Assembly: GCA_963699705.1 (NCBI GenBank)
Contig: CAVOUW010000003.1
Coordinates: 2,161,776-2,225,775 of the forward strand
Reading direction: 5' to 3'
DNA length: 64,000 bases
From: an uncultured delta proteobacterium
GTDB taxonomy: Bacteria; Desulfobacterota; Binatia; Binatales; Binataceae
The position numbers and the translations under genes are program-made. Positions within the stretch are counted from its first letter, which is position 1; every line of letters begins with the position of its first letter. Below the pieces are notes generated by a model, which made no database searches, had not been told where the DNA came from, and worked only from the letters and a program-made list of their open reading frames with translations. Positions 1,665 to 43,452 of this stretch are shown piece by piece.

Positions 1665-1679
1665 TTTTCCAGGTGCCGC

Positions 1680-2072
1680 GTGAGCGACCAAACATCGATC
1701 GACGACGCGATCGCTTCATTCAATCGAGGCGCGTACTTCGAAGCGGCGGAGATGTTCGAGACCGCGTCGCACGCGGCCGATGACGATCTGAAAGGTCTTA
1801 TCGTCGCGTTCAATCAAATCGCCGCGGCGCTTCATCTGCGCTTCGAGCGCGGCGGACGGCAGGCGTCGATTAACCTGATGTCGCAGGCGATGATCGCACT
1901 CGACGACATGAAGCCCGAGCGCGCCGGGGTTGACGTCGAGCGGCTATGCGCGGAGCTGGCGGCCTACACCGAAGAAGTGCGCGCGACTCCCCGCGACGAG
2001 CGCGACGGCCTCAAGCATCGCGCACGAATTTTCCTGGAGCGCCGCCGCGCGCCGAAGATCAACCGCGTCTGA
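1680..2072 (+). CDS. DUF309 domain protein
   Basis: GTG start. SFNRGAYFEAAEMFE...GLIVAFNQIAAALHLRFERGG matches the DUF309 (PF03745) consensus FNxGxYFEAHExxE...GLIqxAxAlxHxxrgn. Confidence 0.65.
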   Translation: MSDQTSIDDAIASFNRGAYFEAAEMFETASHAADDDLKGLIVAFNQIAAALHLRFERGGRQASINLMSQAMIALDDMKPERAGVDVERLCAELAAYTEEVRATPRDERDGLKHRARIFLERRRAPKINRV

Positions 2073-4237: not shown

Positions 4238-5743
4238 TCAGAAATCGAACAGCTCGCGCATCTTGGCGAGCAGCCATCGATGCGGGCCGCCTTTGCCGTC
4301 GAGCGCGTCGCCGGATGAGAGTTTTTCCAGGCGGTCGCGGTTTCGCGCGGCAATAATATCGCCGATGCTGGCGGCGGCGTCGGGATGCTCCTTGAAGAGG
4401 CGGGTGAAGCCCTCGCGGTCCATTTCGATCACTTCCACGTCGGTGAGCGCGCGCACGTTTGCGTTGCGCGGCTCTCCGGTCATCAGAGCCATCTCGCCGG
4501 TGACGACGCCGCGGCCAATCTCGGCGAGATGTCGAAGCTGGCCGTCGGCGGTATGACCGATGACTTCGGCCCGTCCGCTGCGCACGATGAACATCGACTC
4601 GCCGGGTTCGCCGATGCGCACCAGCATCTCGCCCGCGCCGAACTGGCGCACCGAGACAGTCGGCACCAGCATGCGAAGCTCGTCGTCGCTGAGACCGCGC
4701 AGCCAATCGACCTGGCGCAAGTCGGTTATCAGCTCGCGCTCGAACTGCGCGTCGGCCTTTTCGTCTTCATCGCGGCCGGCGTCGCGCACATGGACGGTGC
4801 GGGTCGGGAACGGAATCTCGATCGAATGCCGCCGCAGCGCGTACCAGAGGCTCGACGCGACGCGATCTTTGACGCGCTCCTGCGCGCCAAAATCCGCAAT
4901 CCAGTACTTGATCCGATATTGAATTGCGAAATCGCCGTAGCTATCTACCTGGACTTCCGGCGCCGGCTCGCGGAGCACTTGCGGCACGTCACGCAGCAGG
5001 GTCATCACGACCTCGCGCACGTGATTGGGCGGCACACCGTAGCTGATCCCGACCGTGATTTCGTCCCGCACAAAGCCGGTCGCGTAGTTGAACAGGGTGT
5101 CCTTGGCGATCACCGAGTTAGGAATCTCGAGACGCTCGTTGGCGCGGGTCACGATAGTGGTGGCGCGCCATGCGATTCCCTTGACCTGCCCGACGTGAGT
5201 GCCGCTGCGAATCCAGTCGCCCGGCTCGAACGGACGCCCCATCGAAAGCGACAGGCCGCTAAAGATGTTGCCGAGGGTTTCCTGCAGCGCAAAACCAAGG
5301 ACCGCCGCGAAGACCGTGGTGGTGGTCAGGATCGAAAGCGGCTGCACCCCGAAGTCGGTGTACAGCACCACCATCACGACCACGAACCACAACGTCAGCA
5401 TCAGCAGGTCCTTGCTGATGGTCGAGAAATGGACCTTGCCGCGGCGCGTGATCGAATCGACGAACTCGAGCACCAGCCGGATCACGCCGAACAGGAAAAT
5501 TACCAGCGCCGCGACCGCAACCTTCTGGCCGACCAACTCGTTGGGAATGAAGCGCGAGCCGGCGTCGATCAATGCGCTGCCCGACAGCAGCAGGAAGGTC
5601 GTGGCAGTTACCGCGCGCTTGCGCCGGCGCACGGCGAAGGCGCCCAGCAAGCCGATCAGCACGAGCACGCTTTCGAAAATCGTGCGTACGTCGCGCGGCA
5701 GCACGTCAATTTGCAGCATCGACTGAAGAGGCGTCGCCACCAT
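4238..5743 (-). CDS. MscS-family mechanosensitive channel fused to a C-terminal cyclic-nucleotide-binding domain
   Basis: N-terminal TM helices plus the MscS beta-domain (GDWIRSGTHVGQVKGIAWRATTIVTRANERLEIPNS). The C-terminal cNMP domain carries GEMALMTGEPRNANVRA. Confidence 0.85.
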   Translation of the reverse strand: MVATPLQSMLQIDVLPRDVRTIFESVLVLIGLLGAFAVRRRKRAVTATTFLLLSGSALIDAGSRFIPNELVGQKVAVAALVIFLFGVIRLVLEFVDSITRRGKVHFSTISKDLLMLTLWFVVVMVVLYTDFGVQPLSILTTTTVFAAVLGFALQETLGNIFSGLSLSMGRPFEPGDWIRSGTHVGQVKGIAWRATTIVTRANERLEIPNSVIAKDTLFNYATGFVRDEITVGISYGVPPNHVREVVMTLLRDVPQVLREPAPEVQVDSYGDFAIQYRIKYWIADFGAQERVKDRVASSLWYALRRHSIEIPFPTRTVHVRDAGRDEDEKADAQFERELITDLRQVDWLRGLSDDELRMLVPTVSVRQFGAGEMLVRIGEPGESMFIVRSGRAEVIGHTADGQLRHLAEIGRGVVTGEMALMTGEPRNANVRALTDVEVIEMDREGFTRLFKEHPDAAASIGDIIAARNRDRLEKLSSGDALDGKGGPHRWLLAKMRELFDF

Positions 5744-5746
5744 CGG

Positions 5747-6919
5747 TCAGATCCCCGCGGCCACCACGATTTCGTCGAGCAGTTTTATCGGATCGAAATA
5801 CTCGGCCGCTATCTCGCGGGCAACGCGCGCATGATGCGGATAGTCGGCATTGATTTGTGCGATCGCGTCCACCGCTTCGTCCGCTGTGTCGAATCCAAAG
5901 AGACCGGCACCGGTCGGGATGAATTTTTCAAACCCGGTCCGCTGGGTAACCACCGGACGTCCAGCGGCCAGGTAGCATACCGTGCGATCGCTGAACCATC
6001 CGGTGCGCGGCCGCACGTAGATGTCCTTGGCGACGGTGAACTCGCCGCGCGACCGGCTGATGTACTCGCGGTAGGCGTCGATATCGAGCGACATCGGCAC
6101 TACCGGCGTAATCGTGAAGCCGCCGGCAAGCGCGCGGTCGTAGTCGGGGCCGCTACTCAAGTTGGTGGCGAGCTCAATCGGCTGCTTCGCGCGCGCCGCA
6201 ACCTCGAGCATCTTGCGGAAATTCAAATGCTTCGACCAGTAGTACGTCTCGCCGGCAATTACCATGTCGTTGCCGTTATTCTGCCAGGTGCCGACAGTCG
6301 TGAACGCAGCCGGCTCCGCGGGGCCAACCCCCGGATGCCACTCGTCGAGATTTACCGGCGGACGCGTGGGATGCCAATCGCGGCCGCCCGTAGGGAGCAG
6401 GCAGTCCGGCGCGCCGATATTGTAGCAATACGTGAAAAGCAATTTGTGCGAATTCGCAAACGCCACCGCGGTCGGAATCTTCCGCGCCAGCTCGAGCTGC
6501 ACGACGCCGGGGTCGGTCTCGAGGTACACCAGGCAGCGGCTGCGCTGATGCTCCTCGCGCGGCTCGGTCGCGCCGCAAAGATTGATCACGGCGTCGGCGT
6601 CGCGAATCAATTCACCGCATCTTTCGCGCGACATGCCGACGTACTCTTCTTTCGCCGAATCGAAGAACGCCCAGCGGTCGCCGAAGCCATAGCGCTCGAG
6701 CACGCCGCCCAGCACCTTGAGATTTCGCGACGGATCCGGAGTGCTGGTTTCGATCGTCGGGTCGTAAACGTGAGCGCAGTGATCCTCGATATAGAAAACC
6801 TCGAGGCCGAGCTGCCGAAACCCGATCAGATGATGAAGCAATTGCCAGATTACCCCGGCGAACGGGTAACGCGCCGCCAGATGCAGCACGACGACTTTGC
6901 CCTTGCGCTTGCCGTTCAC
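5747..6919 (-). CDS. putative glycosyltransferase (GT-B fold, GT1/GT4-like)
   Basis: 390 aa. The C-terminal half (WFSDRTVCYLAAGRPVVTQRTGFEKFIPTGAGLFGF) resembles the nucleotide-sugar-binding domain of GT-B enzymes. The family is not firmly recognised. Confidence 0.5.
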   Translation of the reverse strand: MNGKRKGKVVVLHLAARYPFAGVIWQLLHHLIGFRQLGLEVFYIEDHCAHVYDPTIETSTPDPSRNLKVLGGVLERYGFGDRWAFFDSAKEEYVGMSRERCGELIRDADAVINLCGATEPREEHQRSRCLVYLETDPGVVQLELARKIPTAVAFANSHKLLFTYCYNIGAPDCLLPTGGRDWHPTRPPVNLDEWHPGVGPAEPAAFTTVGTWQNNGNDMVIAGETYYWSKHLNFRKMLEVAARAKQPIELATNLSSGPDYDRALAGGFTITPVVPMSLDIDAYREYISRSRGEFTVAKDIYVRPRTGWFSDRTVCYLAAGRPVVTQRTGFEKFIPTGAGLFGFDTADEAVDAIAQINADYPHHARVAREIAAEYFDPIKLLDEIVVAAGI

Positions 6920-6956
6920 CGTTTGGGTCGAGATCTTAGTCCGTGCTCCTGCGACA

Positions 6957-7598
6957 TCATAGTTGGCCGGCGCGGTCTGCGGCTATCCGCGCGAGCTCGT
7001 CGCGCAGCTTGAGCAGCGCAATCCGGCGCTGGCTGATTTGCGCCTCTTCCTCGTCGCCGAGTTCGCCCAGATAACAGTTGCGCCCGGGAATGACCAGCAC
7101 CGCGCGATACGGAAATCCGGCGCGAATTTTGGGATACGCTTGCGCGGCGATCACGCCCTCAATTGTGCCCTCCGCGGTCTTCTCGCGAATCATGCCGCCC
7201 GCTTCATGAATCAGCGCGAGGGTCGCACGAATTCGCGCCGTCCGCTGCGCCATCGGCACAGTTTTCATCCGGCGAATTACTTCAGCTACCAGCGCCTCGT
7301 CGGTATCGTCGCCACCCGAACCCAGCCATCGATGCGACCGCACTCCCGGCTCGCCGCCCAAAGCGTCGATCTCGAGGCCTCCATCGTCGGCCAGCGTCGC
7401 AATTCGCGCGCGATCGAAATAGTACCGCGCCTTGAGCAGCGCATTCTCGGTGAAGGTCGCGCCCGTCTCCTCAGGCGTCTCCGAAATTCCGGCTTCGGCG
7501 AGCGAAACGAGTTCGAGCTCGATCCCGAGGTCGCGGAGGATCAATCGATACTCAGAAAGTTTCGCGCGATTGGTAGTGGCGATCAGCAGCCGATTCAT
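6957..7598 (-). CDS. rdgB: non-canonical purine NTP pyrophosphatase RdgB/HAM1
   Basis: MNRLLIATTNRAKLSEYRLIL...FTENALLKARY matches RdgB. The start ATG at 7596..7598 sits inside the longer ORF 6957..7727. Confidence 0.8.
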   Translation of the reverse strand: MNRLLIATTNRAKLSEYRLILRDLGIELELVSLAEAGISETPEETGATFTENALLKARYYFDRARIATLADDGGLEIDALGGEPGVRSHRWLGSGGDDTDEALVAEVIRRMKTVPMAQRTARIRATLALIHEAGGMIREKTAEGTIEGVIAAQAYPKIRAGFPYRAVLVIPGRNCYLGELGDEEEAQISQRRIALLKLRDELARIAADRAGQL

Positions 7599-7606: not shown

Positions 7607-8773
7607 TTAACCCGAGGACTTGGGCTGATATGTGATCTTCAAAGAGGCGCGCTCGCGATGCTCCTCCAGTGCCAGCTCGATTAACCGATCGATCAGACGC
7701 TGCAACGGCAAGCCCGACGCCTCCCACAGCTTCGGATACATGCTGATGGAAGTGAAGCCGGGAATGGTATTCACCTCGTTGACGTAGATCTCGCGCAAGT
7801 CGCGACTCGCCAGAAAATCGACGCGCGACATTCCGCGCAGCGACAATGCCTTGAACGCCGCCACCGCCATTGCGCGCAACTTCTTGGCCTTGGCGGGCGG
7901 CAAGTCGGCAGGAATTTTCGTCGAGGAACCTTCGGGATCGACGTACTTCGATTCGTAATCGTAAAAATCGTGCGCACCCTTGACCAGCACCTCGCCGGGA
8001 ATCGACGCCTCGGGACGATCGTTGCCGAGCACGGCGACCTCGAACTCACGACCCTCGCATGAGGCCTCGATCAGCGCCTTGCGATCGTACTGAAAAGCGT
8101 CGTCGAGCGCGGCGTTTAGATCGGCGGCGCGCTTCACCTTGCTGATTCCGATCGACGATCCGAGCGCGTTGGGCTTGACGAACACAGGATACCCAAGTTT
8201 GCGCGCGAGCTTTGCCCCAAGCTGAGGAGTGTCGCGGTAATCGGCGCGCTCGATCGCAAAATATTTGACGACCGCCACGCCCGCATCGCGGAGCAGTCGC
8301 TTCTGCGCATCCTTGTCCATCCCAATCGCGGAGCCGAGCACGCCCGCACCCACGTACGCGATCCCCGCGAGCTCGAGCAGCCCCTGCACCGTGCCGTCCT
8401 CGCCGTAAGTCCCGTGCAACACCGGGAACACCACGTCGACGCCCGGAATCGCATCTTGTGCGCGCGTCACCTCGCCGCGCGCACCGTTGGCCGGCGTCGC
8501 GACCAGCGCCTGCCCCTCCGGATGCGGCAGCAGTGTCACCTGCGTACCTCCCGCACTAAGCGCAGCAAGATGAGGCGCCTTCTCCGCGAGCAGTTTCAGC
8601 GCATTGCGTTCGAGATACCATCGCCCGTCGCGCCCAATCCCAATCGGAACAATCTCGTAGCGCGCCGGATCCATCGCCGACATCACAGTCAGCGCCGATC
8701 GCAGCGAGATCTCATGCTCGCCCGATCGCCCGCCGAACAGCACGCCAACCCTGAGCCGTTTGTTTTCCGCCAT
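7607..8773 (-). CDS. ddl: D-alanine--D-alanine ligase
   Basis: MAENKRLRVGVLFGGRSGEHEISLRS...EVNTIPGFTSISMYPKLWEASGL. The ATG at 8771..8773 is the 23rd codon of the ORF. The upstream extension runs into an intergenic repeat. Confidence 0.85.
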   Translation of the reverse strand: MAENKRLRVGVLFGGRSGEHEISLRSALTVMSAMDPARYEIVPIGIGRDGRWYLERNALKLLAEKAPHLAALSAGGTQVTLLPHPEGQALVATPANGARGEVTRAQDAIPGVDVVFPVLHGTYGEDGTVQGLLELAGIAYVGAGVLGSAIGMDKDAQKRLLRDAGVAVVKYFAIERADYRDTPQLGAKLARKLGYPVFVKPNALGSSIGISKVKRAADLNAALDDAFQYDRKALIEASCEGREFEVAVLGNDRPEASIPGEVLVKGAHDFYDYESKYVDPEGSSTKIPADLPPAKAKKLRAMAVAAFKALSLRGMSRVDFLASRDLREIYVNEVNTIPGFTSISMYPKLWEASGLPLQRLIDRLIELALEEHRERASLKITYQPKSSG

Positions 8774-8816
8774 GTGCCCGCCCCGCCCCGAGAAGGAACT
8801 TGGGAACTGATTGTAT

Positions 8817-8873
8817 GTGAAACCCGCGGTGGGTTTCACGCTTCCTTCGGCAGGGGTGACCCCTGCACCCAGT
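8817..8873 (+). repeat. intergenic double-hairpin repeat, family 1, full copy A
   Basis: GTGAAACCCGCGGTGGGTTTCACGCTTCCTTCGGCAGGGGTGACCCCTGCACCCAGT. Hairpin 1 is GAAACCC/GGGTTTC and hairpin 2 is CAGGGGT/ACCCCTG. Near-identical copies are at 10729, 12186(rc) and 43377(rc). Confidence 0.8.
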
Positions 8874-9054
8874 AGAAAGAAATCGCAAAATGGCGAGGAC
8901 GCCCTTTTGCTCTAAGGTTCTCTTTCCGCGTGTGACAAAATCCCGCTCTTATCTAAATCACCCAGGTAAGCTGCCGGCGACTAAGTCGCCAGCAGCGGAC
9001 AACACCCCCAACTAGTTCGAACAGGGACGAAGTCCCGCATCTTTATCTTTTTAC

Positions 9055-9080
9055 ACTGGGTGCAGGGGTCACCTCTGCCG
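9055..9080 (-). repeat. family 1 repeat, half copy (hairpin-2 half) in inverted orientation
   Basis: ACTGGGTGCAGGGGTCACCTCTGCCG is the reverse complement of CGGCAGAGGTGACCCCTGCACCCAGT. Together with copy A it forms 26-bp inverted termini around about 180 bp. Confidence 0.65.
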
Positions 9081-9107
9081 CGGGTGCGGGGCGCGCAGCC
9101 CCGCGTC

Positions 9108-10565
9108 CTAGTGTCTGTAATTCGGCGCTTCCTTCGTAATAAACACGTCATGCACATGACTTTCGCGCATGCCCGCGTCGCTGACCTTCACGAACTTCGC
9201 CCGCTTGCGCAGCTCCGCCAGATTTGCCGCGCCCAGGTATCCCATTCCGGACTGCAGGCCGCCGACCAGCTGCTCGATATTCGACGCGAGCGACCCGCGA
9301 TGCGGCACGCGACCTTCGATTCCCTCCGGCACATGCTTGCCGTCGGTCACGTTGAGCTGCTGCCCGTAGCGGTCGCCTGTGCGCTCGTTCATCGCGCCGA
9401 GCGATCCCATCCCGCGATAAAGTTTGTACGTGCGCCCCTGGTAGAGAATCGTCTCGCCGGGACTTTCTTCTGAGCCCGCGAACAGCGACCCAATCATCAC
9501 GCTGTTAGCGCCGGCCGCAATCGCCTTGGTGATATCGCCTGAGAACCGGATTCCACCGTCTGCGATCACCGGGATATTGCGCGGCTCGGCGACCGCGATC
9601 GTATCCATGATAGCCGTGATCTGCGGCACGCCGACGCCTGAGATCACGCGCGTAGTGCAAATCGAACCCGGCCCCATCCCGACCCGGAGCGCATCGGCGC
9701 CCGCGTCGCACAGCGCCTTGGCCCCTTCGCTGGTCGCGACGTTTCCCGCAACCACTTCGACGCCGGGCCATTCGCTCTTGGTCGCTTTGATCGCATCGAT
9801 CACGTTCCGCGTATGCCCATGCGCGGTGTCGATACAAATCACATCGACGCCCGCACGCCTGAGCGCCGCCACGCGCGCCTCGCGCTCCGGACCGACGCCG
9901 ACCGCAGCGCCAACCCGCAGCCGCCCGAGCTGATCCTTGCTCGCATGCGGATGGCGAATCGCTTTGTCCATATCCTTAACTGTGATCAGCCCGCGCAGAC
10001 GATTCTGATCGTCGACCAGCGGCAGCTTCTCGATCCGATGCGCCTGCAGAAGCTCCTTGGCATGCTCGAGATCGATTCCCGGCCGCGCCGTGATCACTTT
10101 GCTCGTCATCACGTCGCGCACTTGCTTGTCGAGCCGCCGCTCGAAGCGCAGATCGCGATTAGTCAAAATCCCAACCAGCCGTCCGTCGGAAACCACCGGC
10201 AATCCCGAAATCCGAAAACGTTCCATCACCGCCAGCGCCTCGCCAATTTTCTGCTCGGGGCTGACGGTGATCGGATCGACGATCATCCCGGTTTCATATT
10301 TCTTGACCGTCTCGACCTCAGCCGCCTGCCCCTCGATCGAAAGATTGCGATGGATAAATCCAATGCCACCCATCTGCGCGATCGCAATCGCCGTGCGCGA
10401 TTCGGTAACGGTATCCATCGGACTCGAGACCAGCGGAATGCGCAGGCGGATCTTCGGCGTCAACGCAGTAGATACATCGCAATTGGATGGCAACAGGTCG
10501 GACGATTGAGGCAACAGCAGAACGTCATCAAAGGTAAGTGCTTCGCGAAGCTCCTGATGCGCCAT
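9108..10565 (-). CDS. guaB: IMP dehydrogenase
   Basis: [26 protein letters not shown]...two CBS domains...GIGFIHRN...[17 protein letters not shown] at 10563..10565 (codon 21 of the ORF). Confidence 0.9.
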
Positions 10566-10728
10566 AAAAATGTCCTCCTCAACTAGAAAATAAAAAAAGA
10601 GCCCGCGGTTTTTCCGCGGGCCCAATCCAGCCGTCAGTTGTTACACGCAGTCCGTTTAATCAGATGCGCCATAACCGACCCTAACAAGAGCCGCGCACCC
10701 GATCAATACGGGGATTAGGAGATTGAAA

Positions 10729-10784
10729 GTGAAACCCTCCGCGGGTTTCACGCTTCCGCGGCAGGGGTGACCCCTGCACCCAGT
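10729..10784 (+). repeat. family 1 repeat, full copy C
   Basis: GTGAAACCCTCCGCGGGTTTCACGCTTCCGCGGCAGGGGTGACCCCTGCACCCAGT, in the divergent region between guaB and the desaturase. Confidence 0.8.
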
Positions 10785-11009
10785 GAGTCGAGTTCGCGCG
10801 ACTAGCGGGAGCTTGATTAGAAACTTCGGGCGTTCGAGTATCACAGTCCGACTAGCCCCTCGCCTTCGACCAGATTTTCGGGACCGACCACCATCTCCGG
10901 GCTATAAGTTTTTGGATGGGCTCCATCATCAGTACGTTCGGGCTTGGGTTTTGGCGAGAACAAGCGGTCGAAGGGAGACATCGAGAGCATTCGCTGTCGA
11001 GATCGAGAT

Positions 11010-12179
11010 ATGAATTTTGGAGCCAATCGCAAACTCGGCTTTCGATGGGCTGGAGTCCCGATAGCTCTGGCCAGCGCGGTTGCCATATCGCTCGTGGCCT
11101 TGCTTTCCTTCGGAAGCTACGGCGCTGCGATGACTCTCGGGAGGGTTCGTCCGCTACGTAACGCGTATCAATTTCTCTCGAAGTCTTACGACCGGTTAAT
11201 CGATCAGATTGGCCATGAAGTTCTGCAGGACTCCAGAGATACGCCTGCGTTACGACTTATGGTTTCCCTTAGCCTTAGCGCCATACCAATTTTCCTGATC
11301 CAACTCGCTTTGGGAAAACCTCGAGTGCTGCTCGCGATCGCTTTCTACCTTTCCCTTTATGGTCTCAAGTTTCAGCGGTTTGTCAGGATGTTCAGCGCCA
11401 AACACCTGGAAGCGCATCGGCGCCAGGGCTACTTTTCGAAGAAGTACGATAAAGTCTTTGGCCGCTACTTCGAGTTCTTTCTGGGGTATCTCTATGGAAA
11501 CATTCCGGAACTCGATAGGACTGTTCATGTCCATCTCCATCATAGAGAGAATGGCGGATTCGATGACACCGCGGAGTCACGGGGCTACGATCGAACAAGT
11601 CGACTGGATTTCCTCCGGTATCTCTCTAACAACATTTGGACGGTTTTAGGGATTGCCCCATATACCTACTTTAAGGCCAGAGGCGATGAGGAGAACCGAA
11701 GACGCCTGTTATGGGGTATGGTGCGGTACTATGCCTACTTCGGAGCCGTCGTTATCTACGACTGGAGAATTGGGATCATGTTCGTGTTAGTTCCATTTCT
11801 CTGCATGAACTTTCTCACGGCAATAGTCGCATGGGTTCAGCACGCCTTTTACAACTCGGACCGGCCCGAGGACTATTTTGCGCATACCGTAACCGTTCTG
11901 GATGAGGTCAACTTCATGAACGAAGGATACCACCTATGTCATCACCACCGAGCTGGCCTGCATTGGACCGAGATGCCGGCCCATCTCGAGCGGCTTCGTG
12001 ACAGGATGAAAGAGTCTGGCTCCTTGGTGTTCCGCGATCTGGATTTTTTGGGACTCTTCTTTGAGTTGACCCTCCTTTGCAGAATGGATGTGCTTGCCGA
12101 GAAACTTGTCCCTTGGGAACCTATAAGTCACGAGCAGAGATTGGCGTTGCTGGCTAAGAGAACTGCGGTCGAGACTTAG
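11010..12179 (+). CDS. fatty acid desaturase family membrane protein (low-GC, likely acquired)
   Basis: His boxes HLEAHRRQG, HVHLHHREN and HLCHHHRAG with multiple TM segments. Local GC is about 50-55% against about 65% in neighbours. An alternative TTG start is at 10944. Confidence 0.7.
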   Translation: MNFGANRKLGFRWAGVPIALASAVAISLVALLSFGSYGAAMTLGRVRPLRNAYQFLSKSYDRLIDQIGHEVLQDSRDTPALRLMVSLSLSAIPIFLIQLALGKPRVLLAIAFYLSLYGLKFQRFVRMFSAKHLEAHRRQGYFSKKYDKVFGRYFEFFLGYLYGNIPELDRTVHVHLHHRENGGFDDTAESRGYDRTSRLDFLRYLSNNIWTVLGIAPYTYFKARGDEENRRRLLWGMVRYYAYFGAVVIYDWRIGIMFVLVPFLCMNFLTAIVAWVQHAFYNSDRPEDYFAHTVTVLDEVNFMNEGYHLCHHHRAGLHWTEMPAHLERLRDRMKESGSLVFRDLDFLGLFFELTLLCRMDVLAEKLVPWEPISHEQRLALLAKRTAVET

Positions 12180-12185
12180 CACGGG

Positions 12186-12244
12186 TGTAGGGGTCAACCC
12201 GCCGAAGGAAGCAGTGAAAAATGAAACCCACCGCGGGTTCTCAT
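12186..12244 (-). repeat. family 1 repeat, copy D (reverse orientation, degenerate)
   Basis: Its reverse complement is ATGAGAACCCGCGGTGGGTTTCAtttttcacTGCTTCCTTCGGCGGGTTGACCCCTACAC. It lies directly after the desaturase stop. Confidence 0.7.
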
Positions 12245-12264
12245 TTTATTAAGTTATTCCACGC

Positions 12265-13053
12265 TCACTTCCCGCACCAGACTGGTTTGCGCTTTTCCAG
12301 GAAGGCGCCGATTCCTTCTTGCGCGTCCGTTGCCATCGCGTTCTGGCTCATCACTTCTTTTGTGTAGTCGTATGCCTTCGCGGTATCGAGATCGATTTGC
12401 TCGTAAAACGCACGCTTGCCGATTCCGATGATTAGCGGGCTGGCTTCGACTATCTGCATCGCGAGTTTGCGGGTCTCTGCGATTAGCTCCGCGTCGGCCA
12501 CCACTCTGTTCGCGAGTCCCCATTCAGCTGCGATGCGCGCTTTTACTGGCTGCCCAGTCAGCAGCATCTCCATCGCATGCTTGCGTCCGACTGCGCGCGT
12601 CAGCGCGACCATCGGCGTCGAGCAGAACAGTCCGATCCTCACACCCGGCGTCGCGAAACTCGCGCTCTCACCCGCGATGACGAGGTCGCAGGTCGCCGCG
12701 AGCTGGCATCCTGCGGCGGTCGCGATCGCATGCACGCGCGCGATCACCGGCTGTGGAATTCTTTGAATCGTCAGCATTAACTGCGAGCACAGATCGAATT
12801 CATTGCGGTAGAATGCGAGGTCGCGCCCCTTCAGCTCGCCTAGGTCGTGGCCGGCCGAGAACGCCGGCCCGTTGCCGGCGATTATTACCGCGCGCGCATC
12901 GTTGCGTTTGCCAATCGCGACCAGAGCGTCGTTCAGCTCCGTCATCATCGCGGTGGACAGCGCGTTGCGCTTCTCCGGCCGGTTCATCGTGAGCGTGACG
13001 AGCCCGGCTTCTTCTTCGATGATCAAATTCTTCTGCCCGTTTTCATTCGCCAT
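12265..13053 (-). CDS. enoyl-CoA hydratase/isomerase (crotonase family)
   Basis: AVIIAGNGPAFSAGHDLGEL...IARVHAIATAAGCQLAATCDLVIAGESASFATPGVRIGL. ATG at 13051..13053. Confidence 0.85.
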   Translation of the reverse strand: MANENGQKNLIIEEEAGLVTLTMNRPEKRNALSTAMMTELNDALVAIGKRNDARAVIIAGNGPAFSAGHDLGELKGRDLAFYRNEFDLCSQLMLTIQRIPQPVIARVHAIATAAGCQLAATCDLVIAGESASFATPGVRIGLFCSTPMVALTRAVGRKHAMEMLLTGQPVKARIAAEWGLANRVVADAELIAETRKLAMQIVEASPLIIGIGKRAFYEQIDLDTAKAYDYTKEVMSQNAMATDAQEGIGAFLEKRKPVWCGK

Positions 13054-13083
13054 CGGTTTTCACCTGCCTTTGATTTCAGTCTC

Positions 13084-13914
13084 TCACTCGGGCGGTTCGT
13101 TTTTCCATTCCTCGGGATAGAGCAGCAGCAAGTCCTGGCCGAGCGCGCGCACCAGGAATCGCTGCGTCTCATTGATCGCACGTTCGAGCGCCCGCCCGCC
13201 AATCAGCCAATGCCCGCGCCCGCGAATCGTCGTCAGCTTGGCGCCGATCGACTCGGCGAATTTCGTGGTCTGTTGCAGCGGCGCGAAGATGTCCGAATCG
13301 CCGGTGACGACGAGGCGAGGCGCGGCCTTGTCCACTGCCGCGAATTCGATTGCACCGGTGATTACGTCGGTCGCGAGCGCGCCCGAATCGGGAATCATCG
13401 CCTTGATCAACCCGTCGCGCGTGAACGGATCGGAATCGGCGATCAGCTCGAACAGAATTCTCCCGCTCGGCGGTTTGATCGGCCGGCCGAGCATCATCGC
13501 GATGCGATTTCCGATTCCGCCGATGAGCGGTGTGCGAAAGCCCGGCACCAGCGGCGCATACGCGACCGACGCTTTTACTCGGCGATGCTCGCTGAGCTTG
13601 AGCGCGACCAAGCCGCCGACGCCATGACCGAGCACGACCGCGTCGCGGCCGATTCCCTCGATCGCTTCAGCTGCCAGCGCGGTCAAATCATTAAAGCGAA
13701 GTTTCTCGATCGGCGGCGTCGAGTCTTTGCCGAACACGGCGCGCAGATCAGGCACGAACACTTCCCATCCGATCGACGCGAGGTAGCCGACCACCAGCGC
13801 GAGATGCCGCGGCCTCGTGAAGAGTTCGGGCAGGACGATTATCGGCCACGCAAACTTGACCGGCTCGGGCAGCTCGCGCTGTGCGGGGATGCGGCCGAGT
13901 ACGAGGTCGTCCAC
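13084..13914 (-). CDS. alpha/beta-hydrolase fold protein with an atypical nucleophile elbow (GHGVGG)
   Basis: PIIVLPELF...VVLGHGVGGLVAL...VTGDSDIFAP...GRGHW. Asp and His are retained, but the expected Ser in G-H-S-x-G is Gly (codon ggc at 13621..13623). Confidence 0.7.
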   Translation of the reverse strand: MDDLVLGRIPAQRELPEPVKFAWPIIVLPELFTRPRHLALVVGYLASIGWEVFVPDLRAVFGKDSTPPIEKLRFNDLTALAAEAIEGIGRDAVVLGHGVGGLVALKLSEHRRVKASVAYAPLVPGFRTPLIGGIGNRIAMMLGRPIKPPSGRILFELIADSDPFTRDGLIKAMIPDSGALATDVITGAIEFAAVDKAAPRLVVTGDSDIFAPLQQTTKFAESIGAKLTTIRGRGHWLIGGRALERAINETQRFLVRALGQDLLLLYPEEWKNEPPE

Positions 13915-13926
13915 AGCAATGCCGGG

Positions 13927-15189
13927 TTAGGCGCCGCGCGACGCCGCCGCCATCAGGCGCGCGAATCGGAACGAGAGAGACGCAGCCTTCGGCGCCAGCA
14001 TTTGCGCGAACCTGACCATCTCGTCCGCCGCCCATTGTTCGCGGCTCGCCGCGCGATGCGCCAGGTGGCTGCCCTGGTCGAGTGGCAGCTCGCGCGACAC
14101 GCGAATGCTCGCGTTGTAGTACGGCATCAACTCGGCATCGCGCCGCCGCGTGAAGTCGCTCAGCATATCGACCGGAATCGCATTGCCACGGCCGCCGGAG
14201 AACCACTCGCGCGCGAGCTCTCCGACCATCCACGCGCTCATCAACGCCATCGAATGCCCCTGGCCGAACAGCGGATCGACGTGCAGGCCCGCGTCGCCGA
14301 TCAGAATCGCGCCGTCGGTGACCGGATCGCGCCAGGTGTTGTTGAGGATGCCCGAGGAAAATACTTTGCCCGCGATGGTCGCGCCTTCGAGCATCTTCCC
14401 GACTGCGAGCGAGCGAGCGAGTGCGCTTCGCAGATTCGATGCGAGGTCGGTTCGAAAGGTTTGCATCTTCGACGCGTCGAACGCGGTCGCCGCGACCGTG
14501 AGTCCGTTTTCGCATCGACAAAGCAGGTTGGCCTCGCCGGGTGCGGACTCGAATTCCGCGATCAGATCGTCGCCGAGATTTTTCCGCGAGACGCCTTCGA
14601 AGTACGCGTAGTAGTACGCGCGCGCGCACGGCACATCGACGCGCTTGAACGCGTCGATCCGCTCCGACGCGATCTGCGCGACCGAGCTGCGCATCCCGTC
14701 GGCGCCAATCGTCAGCGTCGCACGAAACTCGTGGACGCCCGACGCATCTTCGCCGCGAATTCCGACCACGGCGTTATCTTCGATCAGCAGATCGGTAACT
14801 CTGAAGCGTTCGCGAAACGTGACGCCTTCGAAACTCCGCGCCGCATCGATCATCGCCGCGTCCATCAACACGCGTCCGAGGCAAAGTCCGCGATCGTCCG
14901 CACCGTCGTGCATGAGTTCGGCGCTGTAATCGAAGTCGGGACCGACCGTGCGTGAGCGCGCGAAGCGTACGCCGCCCACGCGCTCGAGCATTTCGAGCAC
15001 GCCCATCCGCTCGAGCACTTTGGTTCCACCGCCGAGCACGATATGCGTCGAGAGCCGATCCGACGGGAACACATCTTTATCGACAAGCAGAACGCGGCGG
15101 CCGTCACGCGCAAGTAAAATTGCGGTCGCGCTGCCGGCGACGCGCGCGCCGACAATTATCACGTCAAAAGTTTTCGCTGACTCGGACAT
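13927..15189 (-). CDS. FAD-dependent oxidoreductase (geranylgeranyl-reductase/monooxygenase-like)
   Basis: MSESAKTFDVIIVGARVAGSATAILLARDGRRVLLVDKD (Rossmann GxGxxG/FAD). The ORF extends to 15246. ATG 15187..15189 is chosen as the start and the exact start is uncertain. Confidence 0.7.
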   Translation of the reverse strand: MSESAKTFDVIIVGARVAGSATAILLARDGRRVLLVDKDVFPSDRLSTHIVLGGGTKVLERMGVLEMLERVGGVRFARSRTVGPDFDYSAELMHDGADDRGLCLGRVLMDAAMIDAARSFEGVTFRERFRVTDLLIEDNAVVGIRGEDASGVHEFRATLTIGADGMRSSVAQIASERIDAFKRVDVPCARAYYYAYFEGVSRKNLGDDLIAEFESAPGEANLLCRCENGLTVAATAFDASKMQTFRTDLASNLRSALARSLAVGKMLEGATIAGKVFSSGILNNTWRDPVTDGAILIGDAGLHVDPLFGQGHSMALMSAWMVGELAREWFSGGRGNAIPVDMLSDFTRRRDAELMPYYNASIRVSRELPLDQGSHLAHRAASREQWAADEMVRFAQMLAPKAASLSFRFARLMAAASRGA

Positions 15190-15265
15190 CAAGCTTCGCG
15201 AGGCTTCGCGATCGACCTCTATCATGTTGAACGCGCGCGCCCGCAAGCAAGCGCCAGCATAAGGA

Positions 15266-15293
15266 AAGAGCCCCCTCTTTCGAAGGGGCTCTC
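15266..15293 (-). terminator. GC-rich hairpin (AGAGCCCC-loop-GGGGCTCT) downstream of the small basic ORF
   Basis: An 8-bp perfect stem at 15267..15274 / 15285..15292. It is followed on the minus strand by the T-rich CTTTCCTTAT. A second hairpin is CCTTCGGGG...CCCGAAGG at about 15356..15385. Confidence 0.35.
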
Positions 15294-15395
15294 CCGTGTT
15301 GCGAGGCCTTTCAGCCTCGGCTTATTCCAGCAGCAATCCCTGGCAGCCTTAGCCAGCCTTCGGGGTATTAGCCCGAAGGTAAACTCGTTAAATGA

Positions 15396-15500
15396 CTACT
15401 TCTTTTTGGTCTTTTTGGCAGGCTTCTTTTTTGCCATTTTGCTCTTCCGCATCGGTTTGGACTTGGTGGCCTTTTTGGCCCGTTTCTTCATTCCTGGCAT
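15396..15500 (-). CDS. 34-aa lysine-rich small basic protein (unlisted small ORF)
   Basis: MPGMKKRAKKATKSKPMRKSKMAKKKPAKKTKKK*. The ATG at 15498..15500 is preceded by a GGAGG Shine-Dalgarno (plus strand CCTCC at 15507..15511, 6 nt from the ATG) and followed by hairpins. It is flanked by an AT-rich intergenic region. Confidence 0.4.
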   Translation of the reverse strand: MPGMKKRAKKATKSKPMRKSKMAKKKPAKKTKKK

Positions 15501-15745
15501 AGGTACCTCCTCTTCCTAGGCTGCTGCTGGAGAAGCGCCTTTTCTTATAGATGAGAAGTCATCTCTCATCGGTTCGAGGCGATTATAGAAACATGTTATT
15601 CTCAAATCAAGGGCCCGAGCGGGATTTATAAAGAAATTTTAAAGTCGAAAGAGTGCAACTGAACCGGTCTGTTTCGGGTCTTTAGAATGACGTTCAAAAT
15701 TAGATGTCTTGAACTGAGACTGACGGTTGAATTAACATCGCTGGG

Positions 15746-16081
15746 ATGACCCGCTTAAGCTTTGTACTCCGCCGCGAGTGGCTCAGCCTAATCTTCGGCG
15801 GGGTGCTAGTGATGCTTATCTTAAGCGCGCTGCTGGGCAACCTGGGTCCGCGCGACCTCGTTGCCCTCCAGAGCCATCGTGCCGCGTTGGAGGCCCGCCG
15901 TAGTCAACTGGCGGCAGAGAATGCGATGTTCAGAACGCGCGTTCAGAAGCTTCGTTCAGATGACCACTATATCGAGCGCCTCATTCGCCGCGAACTCGGC
16001 TACGCGCGACCCGATGAACTCGTGTACAAGTTCGCCGACGATCCCGACACCGATCGCGACAATCAAAACTCTGCTCGCTAG
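15746..16081 (+). CDS. ftsB: septum formation initiator FtsB/DivIC-like
   Basis: N-terminal TM (LSLIFGGVLVMLILSALLG) followed by a coiled coil (LQSHRAALEARRSQLAAENAMFRTRVQKLRSDDHYIERLIRRELGY). Confidence 0.7.
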   Translation: MTRLSFVLRREWLSLIFGGVLVMLILSALLGNLGPRDLVALQSHRAALEARRSQLAAENAMFRTRVQKLRSDDHYIERLIRRELGYARPDELVYKFADDPDTDRDNQNSAR

Positions 16082-17412
16082 AAAATTGCGCTCGAGATCA
16101 ACCGGTACTCGCGCGCCTGGCGTTCCAGGTCTTCGCGGAAATCCGGATGCGCGATCGAGATCAGCGCGCGCGCCCGCTCCGGAACTGATTTGCCTTTCAG
16201 ATTGACGATCCCGTATTCGGTCACGACGTACATCACGTCGGTGCGCGGCGTCGTTACGATATTGCAGTCGTCGATTCGCGCGACGATTCTGCTCGCGCGC
16301 CGTCCCGCGCGTTCGTAAGTCGAAGCGAGGCACAGAAACGACTTGCCGTCGCGCGAGGCATATGCGCCGCGCACGAATTGCAGTTGTCCGCCGGTGCCGC
16401 TTATCTGCCGCGTCCCTGCAGATTCGGAGCACGCCTGTCCGGTGAGATCGATTTGCGCGGCGTTGCAAATCGAAATCACACGGTCGTTCTGCATGATGTG
16501 ATTCGGCAGGTTGGTGTAGTCCACCGGGCCTGCGAAACACGCCGTGTTGCGATCGAGAAAGTCGTACATCCGCTTCGATCCAGCCGCGAACGTGTACGTC
16601 ATCTGGTAGCGATTGGTCGCCTTGTGCGCGCCGGTGACTTTTCCGCTCTCGAACAGCGACACAATCGAATCGACGAACATCTCGGTATGCACGCCGAGGT
16701 CCTTGATCGGCGCCGTCGCGAGCAATTCGCAGACCGCATTAGGCATCGCGCCGATCCCAATCTGCACGCACGCGCCGCTGGGAATCTCGGGCGCGATCAG
16801 CTCCGCGACTTTTTGATCGACCGCGTTCGCCGCCGGATTCTTCAGCTCGGGCATCTCCGACGCGCCCGCATCGATCACGAACTCGACATCATCTATATGC
16901 ACCGCGTTCTCGATTCCGAAAACATACGGCACGCTCGCGTCGGTCTCGACGATCATCGTCCTGGCCTTTTCGCTGATCGCTTTGTGATACGTGATCGACG
17001 GGCCGAAGTTGAAAAAGCCGTGCTCGTCCATCGGCGCGGTCTTCAGAACCGCGAGGTCAACGTCGATGAAGCGGCGATAGTTGTCGGGCGCTTCGCCGAA
17101 GTTCATCGGAATATGATGTGCGAGACCGCGATCGTGCATCTTGCGGTCGAGCCCCGAGAAATACCACGACATGTAGGTGAGATGACGCTCGTCGGGATCC
17201 GCCTCGACCGCCGCGCGCGGACGCATCGCGAGGCATCCGCGAATCTTCACGCGCTCGAGCTCTGTCACGCGCGACGCTAGCGCGCGATCGAAAACGTCCG
17301 GCTGCCCAAGTCCAAACCCGTATTCGACCCAGTCGCCGGATTTGACGCGCGCCGCCGCGTCCTCGGCGGTGATTTTTTTACGTTTGAGTTCCCCCTGGTA
17401 AACATTCGCCAT
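16078..17412 (-). CDS. acetyl-CoA hydrolase/transferase family protein (4-hydroxybutyrate CoA-transferase-like)
   Basis: MANVYQGELKRKKITAEDAAARVKSGDWVEYGFGLGQPD...GIGAMPNAV...ISGTGGQLQFVRGA. ATG at 17410..17412 inside the longer ORF. Confidence 0.8.
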   Translation of the reverse strand: MANVYQGELKRKKITAEDAAARVKSGDWVEYGFGLGQPDVFDRALASRVTELERVKIRGCLAMRPRAAVEADPDERHLTYMSWYFSGLDRKMHDRGLAHHIPMNFGEAPDNYRRFIDVDLAVLKTAPMDEHGFFNFGPSITYHKAISEKARTMIVETDASVPYVFGIENAVHIDDVEFVIDAGASEMPELKNPAANAVDQKVAELIAPEIPSGACVQIGIGAMPNAVCELLATAPIKDLGVHTEMFVDSIVSLFESGKVTGAHKATNRYQMTYTFAAGSKRMYDFLDRNTACFAGPVDYTNLPNHIMQNDRVISICNAAQIDLTGQACSESAGTRQISGTGGQLQFVRGAYASRDGKSFLCLASTYERAGRRASRIVARIDDCNIVTTPRTDVMYVVTEYGIVNLKGKSVPERARALISIAHPDFREDLERQAREYRLISSAIF

Positions 17413-19969: not shown

Positions 19970-20010
19970 GGAAGTTCCTTGTCTGTGGAGGTGCGCGCGG
20001 GCCCGGATCT

Positions 20011-39258: not shown

Positions 39259-39345
39259 ATCGTTCCCCCTGACCACCCCGGAAGCCCAAGCCCGCTCCGG
39301 AAATTAGCGCGCCGGCATCGATCCGGCGCGAATTACGCACAGTCT

Positions 39346-39850: not shown

Positions 39851-39855
39851 TCGCG

Positions 39856-43366: not shown

Positions 43367-43376
43367 CTGTCACCAA

Positions 43377-43430
43377 GGTGCAGGGGTTACCCCTGCCGAA
43401 GGAAGTTTGAAACCCACCGCGGGTTTCAAA
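43377..43430 (-). repeat. family 1 repeat, copy E (reverse orientation)
   Basis: Its reverse complement is TTTGAAACCCGCGGTGGGTTTCAAACTTCCTTCGGCAGGGGTAACCCCTGCACC. It sits between the convergent atpE and Smr genes. Confidence 0.8.
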
Positions 43431-43452
43431 TTAAATTGCTAAAGTTCCACGC

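What the first reader, a model, noticed from the sequence alone, without database searches (positions are those of the whole stretch)
10729..12244. Low-GC fatty-acid desaturase cassette bracketed by inverted family-1 repeats
The desaturase (His-box membrane enzyme) is about 50-55% GC, while the flanking genes are about 65%. A family-1 copy lies just upstream (10729, + orientation) and another immediately after the stop (12186, reverse orientation). This pattern suggests a horizontally acquired gene mobilised or delimited by the repeat.
Basis: partly seen in the sequence, partly recalled or inferred. Interest (0 to 1): 0.55.

Follow-up and report, generated by a model that had tools for sequence, protein, structure and literature searches.

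The report
Inserted low-GC desaturase between REP-like repeats
A single fatty-acid-desaturase-type gene of foreign base composition has been inserted into a highly variable gap between two core genes of an uncultured soil bacterium (Candidatus Binatus). It sits exactly between two inverted copies of a short hairpin repeat, but those repeats look like ordinary intergenic REP-type elements and not a vehicle that moves the gene.

Summary
ORF 11010-12179(+) is a PF00487 His-box desaturase. Its GC is 51.5% against 61.4±2.0% for 32 window genes (z=-5), and its GC3 is 59.5% against 75.3% (z=-4.5). It is the lowest-GC 1.4 kb of the window. Two copies of a two-hairpin repeat flank it in inverted orientation: 10727-10785(+) and 12182-12245(-).

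None of 80 related guaB loci has the gene at this site. The ancestral order is ECH-guaB with a gap of about 110-250 bp. In the genus, that gap runs from the ECH stop to the guaB promoter and holds different cargo in different species (for example McrBC), so it is an insertion hotspot.

Orthologues (84-90% aa) lie in at least 7 unrelated contexts. In Binatus-like contigs the gene's GC3 lies below the mean of its neighbours in all eight. In two Acidobacteriota MAGs it has native composition.

Homology to another desaturase locus runs exactly from repeat to repeat (10786-12178).

The repeats are a genus-specific REP/BIME-like family, with at least 120 metagenome contigs and usually convergent doublets. 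Three facts argue against them moving the gene:
- Other desaturase loci lack them.
- Other repeat pairs enclose native genes.
- C and D belong to different subfamilies.

"Acquired and delimited" is supported; "mobilised by the repeat" is not. Interest is modest.

The parts
10714..10785 (+). Family-1 repeat copy C. A short 5' flank (GGAGATTGAAAG) is followed by hairpin 1 (GTGAAACCC-TCCGC-GGGTTTCAC), a linker GCTTCCGCG, then the core hairpin 2 (GCAGGGG-TGA-CCCCTGC) and ACCCAGTG. Its core end faces the desaturase and its outer end abuts the guaB promoter region.
   Evidence: It is 96.9% identical to a metagenome copy in L147 over window 10722-10786.
10786..11009 (+). Upstream region carried with the cassette; it presumably holds the gene's own promoter. 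It is homologous to the region upstream of the desaturase in L085, within a 1403-nt alignment that is 87% identical.
   Evidence: homology window 10786-12178 = L085 7768-9169. No sigma-70 consensus site was found in it.
11010..12179 (+). Membrane di-iron fatty-acid desaturase/hydroxylase-family gene (389 aa) with low GC. Its last residues differ from the usual ...GTYSLR tail of homologues, and the stop codon TAG lies at the junction with repeat D.
12180..12262 (-). Family-1 repeat copy D, in sense orientation behind the ECH stop. It is the most degenerate copy, with an 8-nt insertion and a broken hairpin 2. Its hairpin 1 plus T-runs on both strands matches an intrinsic-terminator pattern for both convergent genes (12224-12240).
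12265..13053 (-). Enoyl-CoA hydratase (ECH), a core gene. Its stop codon is the conserved left edge of the variable segment.
10566..10711 (-). Conserved guaB promoter/leader. It has a -35-like TTGATC, then 17 nt, then an extended -10-like TGnTAnnnT. A conserved ATGGCGC and a terminator-like hairpin (10623-10599) with a T-run follow. It forms the conserved right edge of the variable segment.
9108..10565 (-). guaB (IMP dehydrogenase), a core gene used to fetch related loci.
8813..9111 (.). A second convergent doublet of family-1 repeats: A at 8813-8874(+) and B at 9053-9111(-). It lies between guaB and ddl, with a 178-bp mosaic spacer that includes a third hairpin module (GATGCGGGACTTCGTCCC).
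43375..43432 (-). A solo family-1 copy (E), in sense orientation behind the stop of the Smr-domain gene 43453-44259(-).

Best explanation
The window comes from a Candidatus Binatus (Binataceae, Binatota) genome.

A 1,393-bp segment (10786-12178) carries one desaturase-family gene and 224 bp of its own upstream DNA. This is accessory DNA that was inserted between the enoyl-CoA-hydratase operon and the guaB promoter. In this genus that spacer is a hotspot where each species carries different cargo.

The gene belongs to a clade that circulates or relocates within Binatus-like genomes. In every Binatus-like locus examined it has lower GC and GC3 than the mean of its neighbours. The same family has native composition in two Acidobacteriota MAGs, so an older cross-phylum origin from a lower-GC donor is plausible (inferred).

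The flanking family-1 repeats are genus-specific REP/BIME-like intergenic elements built from two hairpins. They normally sit in sense orientation just behind stop codons and often form convergent doublets. The cassette lies in the centre of such a doublet, with only about 4-9 nt of each repeat tail left.

The repeats mark the integration site, and as a break-prone or recombinogenic palindrome they may have favoured it (inferred). They also now do local work: copy D has the form of a bidirectional terminator between the convergent ECH and desaturase genes (inferred from sequence). They are not a dedicated vehicle for this gene.

How the DNA arrived was not shown. The two candidate routes are illegitimate or microhomology-mediated joining into the doublet, and replacement of the whole spacer by recombination in the flanking core genes.
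For: Insertion. No desaturase lies within 10 kb of guaB in any of 80 related loci. The order AcCoA-hydrolase, FAD oxidoreductase, hydrolase, ECH, guaB, ddl, ham1 is colinear, and the ECH-guaB gap is only about 185-255 bp in L016, L018, L020 and L044.

Hotspot. In all genus-level relatives, homology to the window stops at the ECH stop (about 12265) and resumes at about 10711. The segment between is 113 bp in L044 and up to 4.6 kb in L014, with different content in each species. L011 holds an AAA_5 protein plus McrBC.

Composition. z=-5.0 for GC and z=-4.5 for GC3. It is the lowest-GC stretch of the window.

Wandering gene. Ten other loci fall into at least 7 contexts. Nucleotide homology is limited to the ORF plus 0-224 bp upstream. 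In 8 Binatus-like loci the desaturase GC3 is 0.61-0.68 against neighbour means of 0.66-0.75. In the Acidobacteriota MAG contigs it is 0.62 against 0.66 (L211) and 0.785 against 0.79 (L212). These proteins are 77-78% identical to the window's, while guaB is only 60-61% identical to that of Terriglobia.

Functional gene. dN/dS is 0.13-0.23 and the His boxes are invariant.

Boundaries. L085 homology spans exactly 10786-12178, between the end of C and the start of D.

Repeat family.
- At least 120 metagenome contigs carry the exact 21-nt core.
- There are 169 copies in 683 kb. Adjacent pairs are convergent in 24 cases, against 11 and 7 same-strand pairs and 7 divergent pairs, with spacers from -3 to about 730 bp.
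- 97.8% of hairpin cells are paired, and three pairs in hairpin 1 show changes on both sides.
- 88 copies lie within 120 nt behind a gene end on the same strand, against 32 next to a gene start.
- The family is found only in loci with guaB at least 92% identical.
- The spacers are mosaics of further repeat modules.
- Copy D matches the terminator pattern on both strands.
Against: The exact coincidence of both cassette ends with the repeat ends is more than mere co-occurrence of intergenic repeats predicts. It leaves room for a direct role of the repeats.

The left boundary rests on a single comparison locus (L085).

Only L044 among the relatives has a repeat in the ECH-guaB spacer, and it is a solo copy. 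An ancestral doublet at this site is therefore assumed, not observed.

No promoter was identified for the desaturase.

The taxonomic labels of the Acidobacteriota MAGs could not be checked.

dS to the other loci (0.35-0.45) is only slightly below core-gene dS to the nearest sampled congeners (0.44-0.68). Long residence in the genus with relocation therefore cannot be separated from repeated within-genus transfer.
Confidence: 0.65

Rival explanations
1. The unit C-desaturase-D is a REP-bounded mobile element, a REPIN-like doublet that captured a cargo gene. It would be moved in trans by a REP-associated tyrosine transposase (RAYT) or a similar enzyme that recognises the hairpins.
For: Both ends of the foreign segment coincide with the inner ends of inverted hairpin repeats. 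The family typically forms convergent doublets with spacers of very variable length. Hairpin structure is maintained through compensatory changes. REPINs are defined as two inverted REPs with a spacer, mobilised by RAYTs (abstract of PMC3337134).
Against: - No second copy of the unit was found: no desaturase in 120 repeat-bearing contigs and no family-1 repeat in six other desaturase loci.
- C and D are not a matched pair. C is 97% identical to a copy in L147 and 84% to the L044 copy, whereas D is 73% identical to the L044 copy and carries an indel and a broken core.
- No target-site duplication flanks the unit.
- No transposase was recognised in the window ORFs scanned or between any repeat pair.
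- D has the position and orientation of the resident repeat behind ECH in L044.
Confidence: 0.1
2. The desaturase is an old, vertically inherited Binatus gene. Its low GC is maintained by selection or results from its amino-acid content, and its position here results from ordinary rearrangement.
For: The closest homologues are all from Binatus-like contigs. dS among them (0.35-0.45) is close to between-species core dS. One third of the GC deficit is due to amino-acid composition. All orthologues share the low GC.
Against: The gene is absent from the syntenic site, and from 20 kb around guaB, in all 11 genus-level relatives. It lies in at least 7 different contexts, with homology limited to the gene. 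GC3 is 4.5 SD below the window's genes. The L212 orthologue has fully native GC3, so low GC is not intrinsic to the family. The gene is 77-78% identical across phyla, against 60-61% for guaB.
Confidence: 0.07
3. This is an assembly artefact. A metagenome assembler joined a desaturase segment from another strain or site into this contig through the shared repeats.
For: The foreign segment is bounded on both sides by a repeat whose 21-nt core is identical in many copies. The exact protein is not on record elsewhere.
Against: Copy D is highly diverged, with several core mismatches and an 8-nt insertion, so it offers little exact overlap with other copies. The outer flanks of both repeats continue into the expected ECH and guaB sequences. 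Comparable cargo insertions occur at the same spacer in independent, mostly long-contig assemblies.
Confidence: 0.05

Closest known systems
REP / REPIN / BIME elements (repetitive extragenic palindromes, their inverted doublets and mosaic clusters; Enterobacteria, Pseudomonas)
   Same: They are short (about 60 nt) hairpin-forming repeats that are mostly intergenic. There are many copies per genome and the family is lineage-specific. Copies frequently form inverted doublets with a spacer and are combined with other short modules into mosaics. They usually lie just behind gene ends.
   Different: The unit has two hairpins, and its 21-nt core is near-invariant among the copies retrieved (which were selected by that core), while hairpin 1 varies. 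Doublet spacers are far more variable (-3 to more than 700 bp). No RAYT gene was seen. The lineage is an uncultured phylum (Binatota) for which I know of no described REP family. No Rfam family matches.
Chromosomal integration hotspots / genomic islets between conserved core genes
   Same: The flanks are conserved while the content differs between congeners. The cargo has atypical composition and includes defence genes (McrBC in L011) and, in the neighbouring guaB-ddl spacer, an IS-borne methylase (L007). The edges coincide with a stop codon and a promoter.
   Different: The cargo here is a single gene of 1.4 kb. The window's cargo has no integrase or transposase, there is no tRNA in the window, and there is no target duplication.
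Membrane-bound fatty-acid desaturase / hydroxylase superfamily (Pfam PF00487; includes acyl-lipid desaturases, AlkB alkane hydroxylases and carotenoid ketolases)
   Same: The Pfam match is above the cut-off, the protein has the histidine boxes, and it has paired hydrophobic segments.
   Different: No NCBIfam model matches and no solved structure is detectable by sequence or by profile. Plasmid-borne 'fatty acid desaturases' are at most 31% identical. The substrate and reaction are unknown.
IS200/IS605-type elements and their non-autonomous derivatives with hairpin ends
   Same: Hairpins lie at both ends of a segment, and there is no target-site duplication.
   Different: There is no TnpA or TnpB. 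The two ends are inverted copies from different subfamilies, not the left-end and right-end hairpins on one strand. No multiplicity of the unit was found.

Membership tests
PF00487 FA_desaturase (membrane di-iron desaturase/hydroxylase) | Match to the family HMM above the curated cut-off | tested here: met
   64.4 bits against a cut-off of 29.7, covering residues 113-339.
PF00487 FA_desaturase (membrane di-iron desaturase/hydroxylase) | Three histidine boxes (HX3-4H, HX2-3HH, HX2-3HH) that bind the di-iron centre | tested here: met
   HLEAH (132-136), HVHLHH (173-178) and HLCHHH (308-313) are invariant in the 10 aligned homologues. The motif definition is from established knowledge.
PF00487 FA_desaturase (membrane di-iron desaturase/hydroxylase) | Integral membrane topology with paired transmembrane hairpins | tested here: inconclusive
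   Kyte-Doolittle segments lie at 11-43, 79-112 and 243-277. The AlphaFold model was too poor to use (pLDDT 39).
PF00487 FA_desaturase (membrane di-iron desaturase/hydroxylase) | Desaturase or hydroxylase activity on a defined lipid substrate | not testable with these tools
   No characterised close relative exists.
REP / REPIN | Short, extragenic, hairpin-forming repeat present in many copies in a genome | tested here: met
   There are 5 copies in 64 kb, all intergenic, and at least 120 metagenome contigs carry the core. 97.8% of hairpin cells are paired, with compensatory changes. 18 of 193 copies fell inside crude ORF calls.
REP / REPIN | Two REPs in inverted orientation separated by a short spacer (the REPIN doublet) | tested here: met
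   24 convergent pairs, against 7 divergent pairs and 11 and 7 same-strand pairs. Many spacers are between -3 and 160 bp. The definition is from the abstract of PMC3337134.
REP / REPIN | A cognate single-copy RAYT (Y1 transposase) gene, usually flanked by the REPs | not tested
   No candidate was seen among the window ORFs scanned or between repeat pairs, but no systematic search of a complete genome was possible.
REP / REPIN | The C-D pair with its 1.4-kb interior behaves as one replicating unit | tested here: not met
   No second copy exists in the data held. C and D belong to different subfamilies.
BIME-like mosaic | REPs combined with other conserved short motifs in variable arrangements | tested here: met
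   A hairpin-3 module and at least two further modules are shared among doublet spacers of unrelated loci.
Genomic island / integration hotspot | Presence/absence polymorphism between conserved flanking core genes in relatives | tested here: met
Genomic island / integration hotspot | Atypical base composition and codon usage of the cargo | tested here: met
Genomic island / integration hotspot | Integrase or transposase, tRNA target, or direct repeats at the ends | tested here: not met
   There is no tRNA in the window, no target duplication and no mobility gene in 10713-12266.
Composite transposon / cargo-carrying MITE | Matched terminal inverted repeats plus a target-site duplication, with multiple copies | tested here: not met
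   The arms are only 77-83% complementary, with an indel. There is no duplication and no other copy. Contrast L007, which has 97% complementary 30-bp ends and an 8-bp duplication.

The most novel reading that the evidence does not exclude
Convergent REP doublets of this Binatus-specific family might act as capture sites or carriers for single genes. The desaturase would then be a cargo inside a REPIN-like element that can be excised and re-inserted by a hairpin-recognising (RAYT-type) enzyme. This would explain how a lone gene with no mobility gene of its own reaches at least 7 unrelated chromosomal contexts.
Probability: 0.08. Interest if true: 0.75.

Novelty: new member of a known kind. Interest (0 to 1): 0.33.

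Why it matters
The finding gives a clean, nucleotide-resolved example of how the flexible genome of an uncultured soil phylum (Binatota) is organised. A short spacer between a stop codon and a promoter takes up different cargo in each species: a lipid-modifying enzyme here, and McrBC elsewhere. In the neighbouring guaB-ddl spacer of L007, an IS-borne methylase sits in an equivalent repeat doublet.

It also documents a lineage-specific REP/BIME-like repeat family that I could not find described. Finally, it shows a desaturase-family gene that keeps a foreign composition while moving among many contexts.

None of this overturns current ideas. The value is descriptive unless the repeats prove to be the carrier.

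Tried and rejected
- **Rfam.** Nothing at gathering thresholds for the whole window. At E up to 5 on 8700-12400 there were only sub-threshold chance-level hits. The repeats and the guaB leader match no described RNA family.
- **Structure.** AlphaFold on a 10-sequence alignment gave pLDDT 39, which is unusable, so no fold search was run.
- **Protein classification.** PDB sequence and profile searches and NCBIfam found nothing.
- **Plasmids.** tblastn found only distant homologues, at most 31% identical, so there is no sign that the gene is plasmid-borne.
- **Exact protein.** The exact protein sequence is not on record.
- **Transposon and island signatures.** I searched for terminal inverted repeats, target duplications and tRNAs around the cassette and around the other desaturase loci, and found none.
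- **Integron cassette.** I rejected this on inspection: there is no integrase in the locus, the gene carries 224 bp of its own upstream DNA, and I saw no attC-like site.
- **Shared repeats in other loci.** I asked whether flanks of the other desaturase loci share family-1 repeats. They do not. L003 has a different interspersed module at the gene's 3' end.
- **RAYT.** I looked for a RAYT-like ORF between repeat pairs and saw no candidate. These ORFs were judged by size and composition only, not scanned against Pfam.
Full report
**What is there**

The ORF at 11010-12179(+) encodes a 389-aa protein that matches Pfam PF00487 (FA_desaturase) at 64.4 bits against a cut-off of 29.7.
- Its histidine boxes are invariant in an alignment of ten homologues: HLEAH at 132-136, HVHLHH at 173-178 and HLCHHH at 308-313.
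- It has hydrophobic segments at residues 11-43, 79-112 and 243-277.
- It matches no NCBIfam model and no solved structure by sequence or profile.
- An AlphaFold model was unusable, with pLDDT 39.

I therefore call it a membrane di-iron desaturase/hydroxylase-family enzyme of unknown substrate.

The neighbouring genes are guaB at 9108-10565(-) and, on the other side, an enoyl-CoA hydratase (ECH) at 12265-13053(-). Beyond ECH lie an alpha/beta hydrolase and an FAD oxidoreductase.

**Composition**

| Measure | Desaturase | 32 window genes | z |
|---|---|---|---|
| GC | 51.5% | 61.4 ± 2.0% | -5.0 |
| GC3 | 59.5% | 75.3 ± 3.5% | -4.5 |
| Synonymous-codon fitness index (mean ln w) | -0.774 | -0.429 ± 0.071 | -4.8 |

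If the protein used the host's synonymous codon frequencies it would be 58.2% GC. Amino-acid content therefore explains about a third of the deficit and codon choice the rest. The region is the lowest-GC 1.4 kb of the whole window.

**The repeats**

The repeat unit has these parts:
- a short AT-rich lead-in;
- hairpin 1, a 9-bp stem (for example GTGAAACCC/GGGTTTCAC);
- a CTTCC linker;
- a core, GGCAGGGGTGACCCCTGCACCCAGT, that contains hairpin 2 (7-bp stem). Among the copies retrieved, which were selected by that core, it is almost invariant.

The window holds five copies:

| Copy | Position | Strand |
|---|---|---|
| A | 8813-8874 | + |
| B | 9053-9111 | - |
| C | 10727-10785 | + |
| D | 12182-12245 | - |
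| E | 43375-43432 | - |

Chance predicts none. On 76 distinct full-length copies, 97.8% of hairpin cells are paired. Three pairs of hairpin 1 change on both sides (30 cells), which no shuffle out of 500 reaches. Some of this reflects subfamily descent and not independent compensation, but the hairpin is kept in every subfamily. Rfam has no matching family.

**Source organism and synteny**

A scan of one genome per species with guaB returned 80 loci. The closest (92-98% guaB identity) are labelled Candidatus Binatus, Binataceae or 'uncultured delta proteobacterium'.

The gene order is acetyl-CoA hydrolase, FAD oxidoreductase, hydrolase, ECH, guaB, ddl, ham1. It is colinear on one strand in many of them, and no locus has a desaturase within 10 kb of guaB. 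In L016, L018, L020 and L044, ECH is followed by guaB after only 185-255 bp.

**A hotspot**

In every genus-level relative, homology to the window ends at the ECH stop (about 12265). It resumes at about 10711, at CCCGTATTGATCGG. That sequence is the -35-like end of a promoter/leader conserved across the family. What lies between differs by species:

| Locus | Length of variable segment | Content |
|---|---|---|
| L044 | 113 bp | one solo family-1 repeat |
| L004 | 138 bp | a different interspersed module |
| L005, L006 | about 1.5 kb | not identified (weak, sub-threshold DUF3466 match in L005) |
| L009 | about 2.9 kb | not examined |
| L008, L011 | about 3.6 kb | L011 encodes an AAA_5 protein and McrBC |
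| L014 | 4.6 kb | no Pfam match in the two ORFs scanned |

Most of these segments have lower GC than their surroundings.

The guaB-ddl spacer behaves similarly. In the genus it holds a convergent repeat doublet whose spacer ranges from 8 bp (L008) to 207 bp (L013). In L007 it is 3.7 kb. The L007 cargo is an IS1595-family transposon carrying a DNA methylase, with its own 30-bp inverted ends (97% complementary) and an 8-bp duplication GTAATTAG. That shows these spacers are permissive landing sites for elements that do not depend on the repeats.

**The gene elsewhere**

The 120 best database homologues are 76-90% identical. The few that are named are Candidatus Binatus (85%) and Candidatus Acidiferrales/Acidoferrales (77-78%).

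I read ten other loci. They fall into at least seven unrelated gene neighbourhoods:
- L084 and L210 share one neighbourhood.
- L002 and L086 partly share another.
- L207-L209 are near-identical contigs from three samples.
- L001, L003 and L085 are each unique.

Nucleotide identity to the window is 85-90%, but it is confined to the ORF plus 0-224 bp upstream. It ends at 12178 in nine of the ten loci and at 12171 in L003. The C-terminal tails differ from locus to locus.

dN/dS is 0.13-0.23, so the gene is under purifying selection. dS is 0.35-0.45, against 0.44-0.68 for six core genes compared with the nearest congeners. The clade is thus about as old as the species of the genus. This is not a fresh import from far away.

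In all eight Binatus-like loci the gene's GC3 (0.61-0.68) lies below the mean of its neighbours (0.66-0.75). In the two contigs from Acidobacteriota MAGs it is native: 0.62 against 0.66 ± 0.03 in L211, and 0.785 against 0.79 ± 0.03 in L212. guaB, a much more conserved protein, is only 60-61% identical between the window and Terriglobia. Together these facts suggest an older cross-phylum transfer from a lower-GC donor. That is an inference, and the MAG labels are unverified.

**How the cassette relates to the repeats**

Homology with L085 runs from 10786 to 12178. It starts at the base after copy C's ...CACCCAGTG and ends four bases before copy D's core tail. The rest of the variable segment is accounted for by the two repeat units, which abut the ECH stop and the guaB promoter.

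At the right junction, the usual 3' end of the gene (...ACTTAttcattgag) and the consensus repeat tail (...CTTAACACTGGGTG on this strand) overlap by CTTA. The TAG stop codon is formed across the junction. The left junction is flush.

The first and last 15 nt of the cassette share GTCGAG in direct orientation. By my rough estimate this has a chance probability of about 2-3%, and I leave it unexplained. No target duplication flanks the whole unit, and the window contains no tRNA.

**What the repeat family is**

A profile search finds 169 copies in 683 kb of those contigs. In the guaB loci it finds copies only where guaB is at least 92% identical, so the family is genus-specific.

Adjacent copies are convergent, with cores facing each other, in 24 cases. 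Seven pairs are divergent, and 11 and 7 lie on the same strand. Convergent spacers run from -3 to about 730 bp, plus two of about 1.6 kb. The spacers are themselves mosaics of further shared modules, such as a third hairpin GATGCGGGACTTCGTCCC.

In 88 cases the hairpin-1 side lies within 120 nt behind a gene end on the same strand, against 32 cases next to a gene start. In form and distribution this matches REP elements, their inverted doublets (REPINs; definition in the abstract of PMC3337134) and BIME-type mosaics. The defining partner, a RAYT transposase, could not be looked for in a whole genome.

**Do the repeats move the gene?**

The evidence says probably not:
- Six other desaturase loci contain no family-1 copy. 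L003 has a different interspersed module at its 3' end.
- None of the 120 repeat-bearing contigs contains the desaturase.
- Genes enclosed by other repeat pairs, in all four orientations, mostly have native GC3 of 0.70-0.86.
- The other cargo in the ECH-guaB spacer of relatives has no repeats.
- C and D are not a matched pair. C is 97% identical to a copy in L147 and 84% to the L044 copy. D is 73% identical to the L044 copy, carries an 8-nt insertion and has a broken hairpin 2.
- D has the place and orientation of the solo repeat behind ECH in L044, so it is probably the resident copy.

What remains striking is that both cassette ends fall at the repeat tails. I take this to mean that the DNA was joined into the centre of a doublet, or next to a resident repeat. 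A long palindrome there may be prone to breakage and repair. Alternatively, the whole spacer was swapped in from a congener by recombination in ECH and guaB. Neither step is shown.

**Present function of the parts (inferred)**

Hairpin 1 of copy D, with T-runs on both strands, fits the intrinsic-terminator pattern for both ECH and the desaturase, which converge on it. The 224 bp upstream of the ATG travels with the gene and presumably holds its promoter, although no sigma-70 consensus was found there.

**Verdict**

In kind, this is a small genomic islet in an intergenic hotspot, flanked by REP/BIME-like repeats, in a little-studied phylum. It is a new member of known kinds. Interest is modest at 0.33. 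The one reading that would raise it, a REP doublet acting as a gene carrier, is not excluded, but I give it about 8%.

Noticed in passing
window 10566-10711 (- strand), upstream of guaB: This is a leader conserved across Binataceae. It has a -35-like TTGATC, then 17 nt, then an extended -10-like TGnTAnnnT, and an invariant ATGGCGC near the likely transcription start. A strong terminator-like hairpin (10623-10599, with compensatory G-C to A-T changes among relatives) plus a T-run ends only about 25 nt before the guaB ribosome-binding site. Within the genus a 12-codon upstream ORF (MAHLIKRTA[Y/C]KN) is conserved in eight of the eleven genus-level sequences; it is not conserved across the family. 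This looks like an attenuator or an undescribed riboswitch-like leader. Rfam gives only sub-threshold hits.
   Followed up: partly
L011 6412-9373; L007 11678-15155: The same spacers in relatives carry defence or mobile cargo. In L011 the ECH-guaB spacer holds an AAA_5 protein plus a McrBC-family protein. In L007 the guaB-ddl repeat doublet holds an IS1595-family transposon with a DNA methylase, 30-bp inverted ends and an 8-bp duplication GTAATTAG.
   Followed up: partly
window 8875-9052; L010, L011, L013, L044 guaB-ddl spacers: A third hairpin module (AAGATGCGGGACTTCGTCCCTGTTAGAA) and other short shared modules accompany the family-1 core in many loci, sometimes on both sides in inverted orientation. 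The intergenic repeats are therefore modular mosaics.
   Followed up: partly
L004 9735-9765; L007 15160-15190; L003 11188-11237: Another interspersed module, of the type CCGGGATTCTTCGCTTCGCTCTGAATGACAC, recurs in unrelated loci. In L003 it sits about 30 nt beyond the 3' end of the desaturase homology.
   Followed up: no
window 10787-10792 and 12167-12172: The hexamer GTCGAG occurs in direct orientation within the first and the last 15 nt of the inserted segment. Homologues have GTCGGN at the 3' position. By my rough estimate the chance probability is about 2-3%, and its meaning is unknown.
   Followed up: no
window 39251-40650, 15151-16550, 57001-58400: These are the next-lowest GC stretches of the window, at 54.6-55.9%. 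The first covers a class-III aminotransferase gene (39676-41154, GC3 0.62). The third covers a 663-aa ORF with no Pfam match (GC3 0.615). They may be further accessory DNA.
   Followed up: partly
window 4385-7012(+), 12847-14955(+), 94-633(+), 561-1691(-), 19894-20697(+): These are long ORFs with GC1 well above GC3. That is the signature of antisense 'shadow' frames of real genes on the other strand in a high-GC genome. They should not be taken as genes.
   Followed up: no
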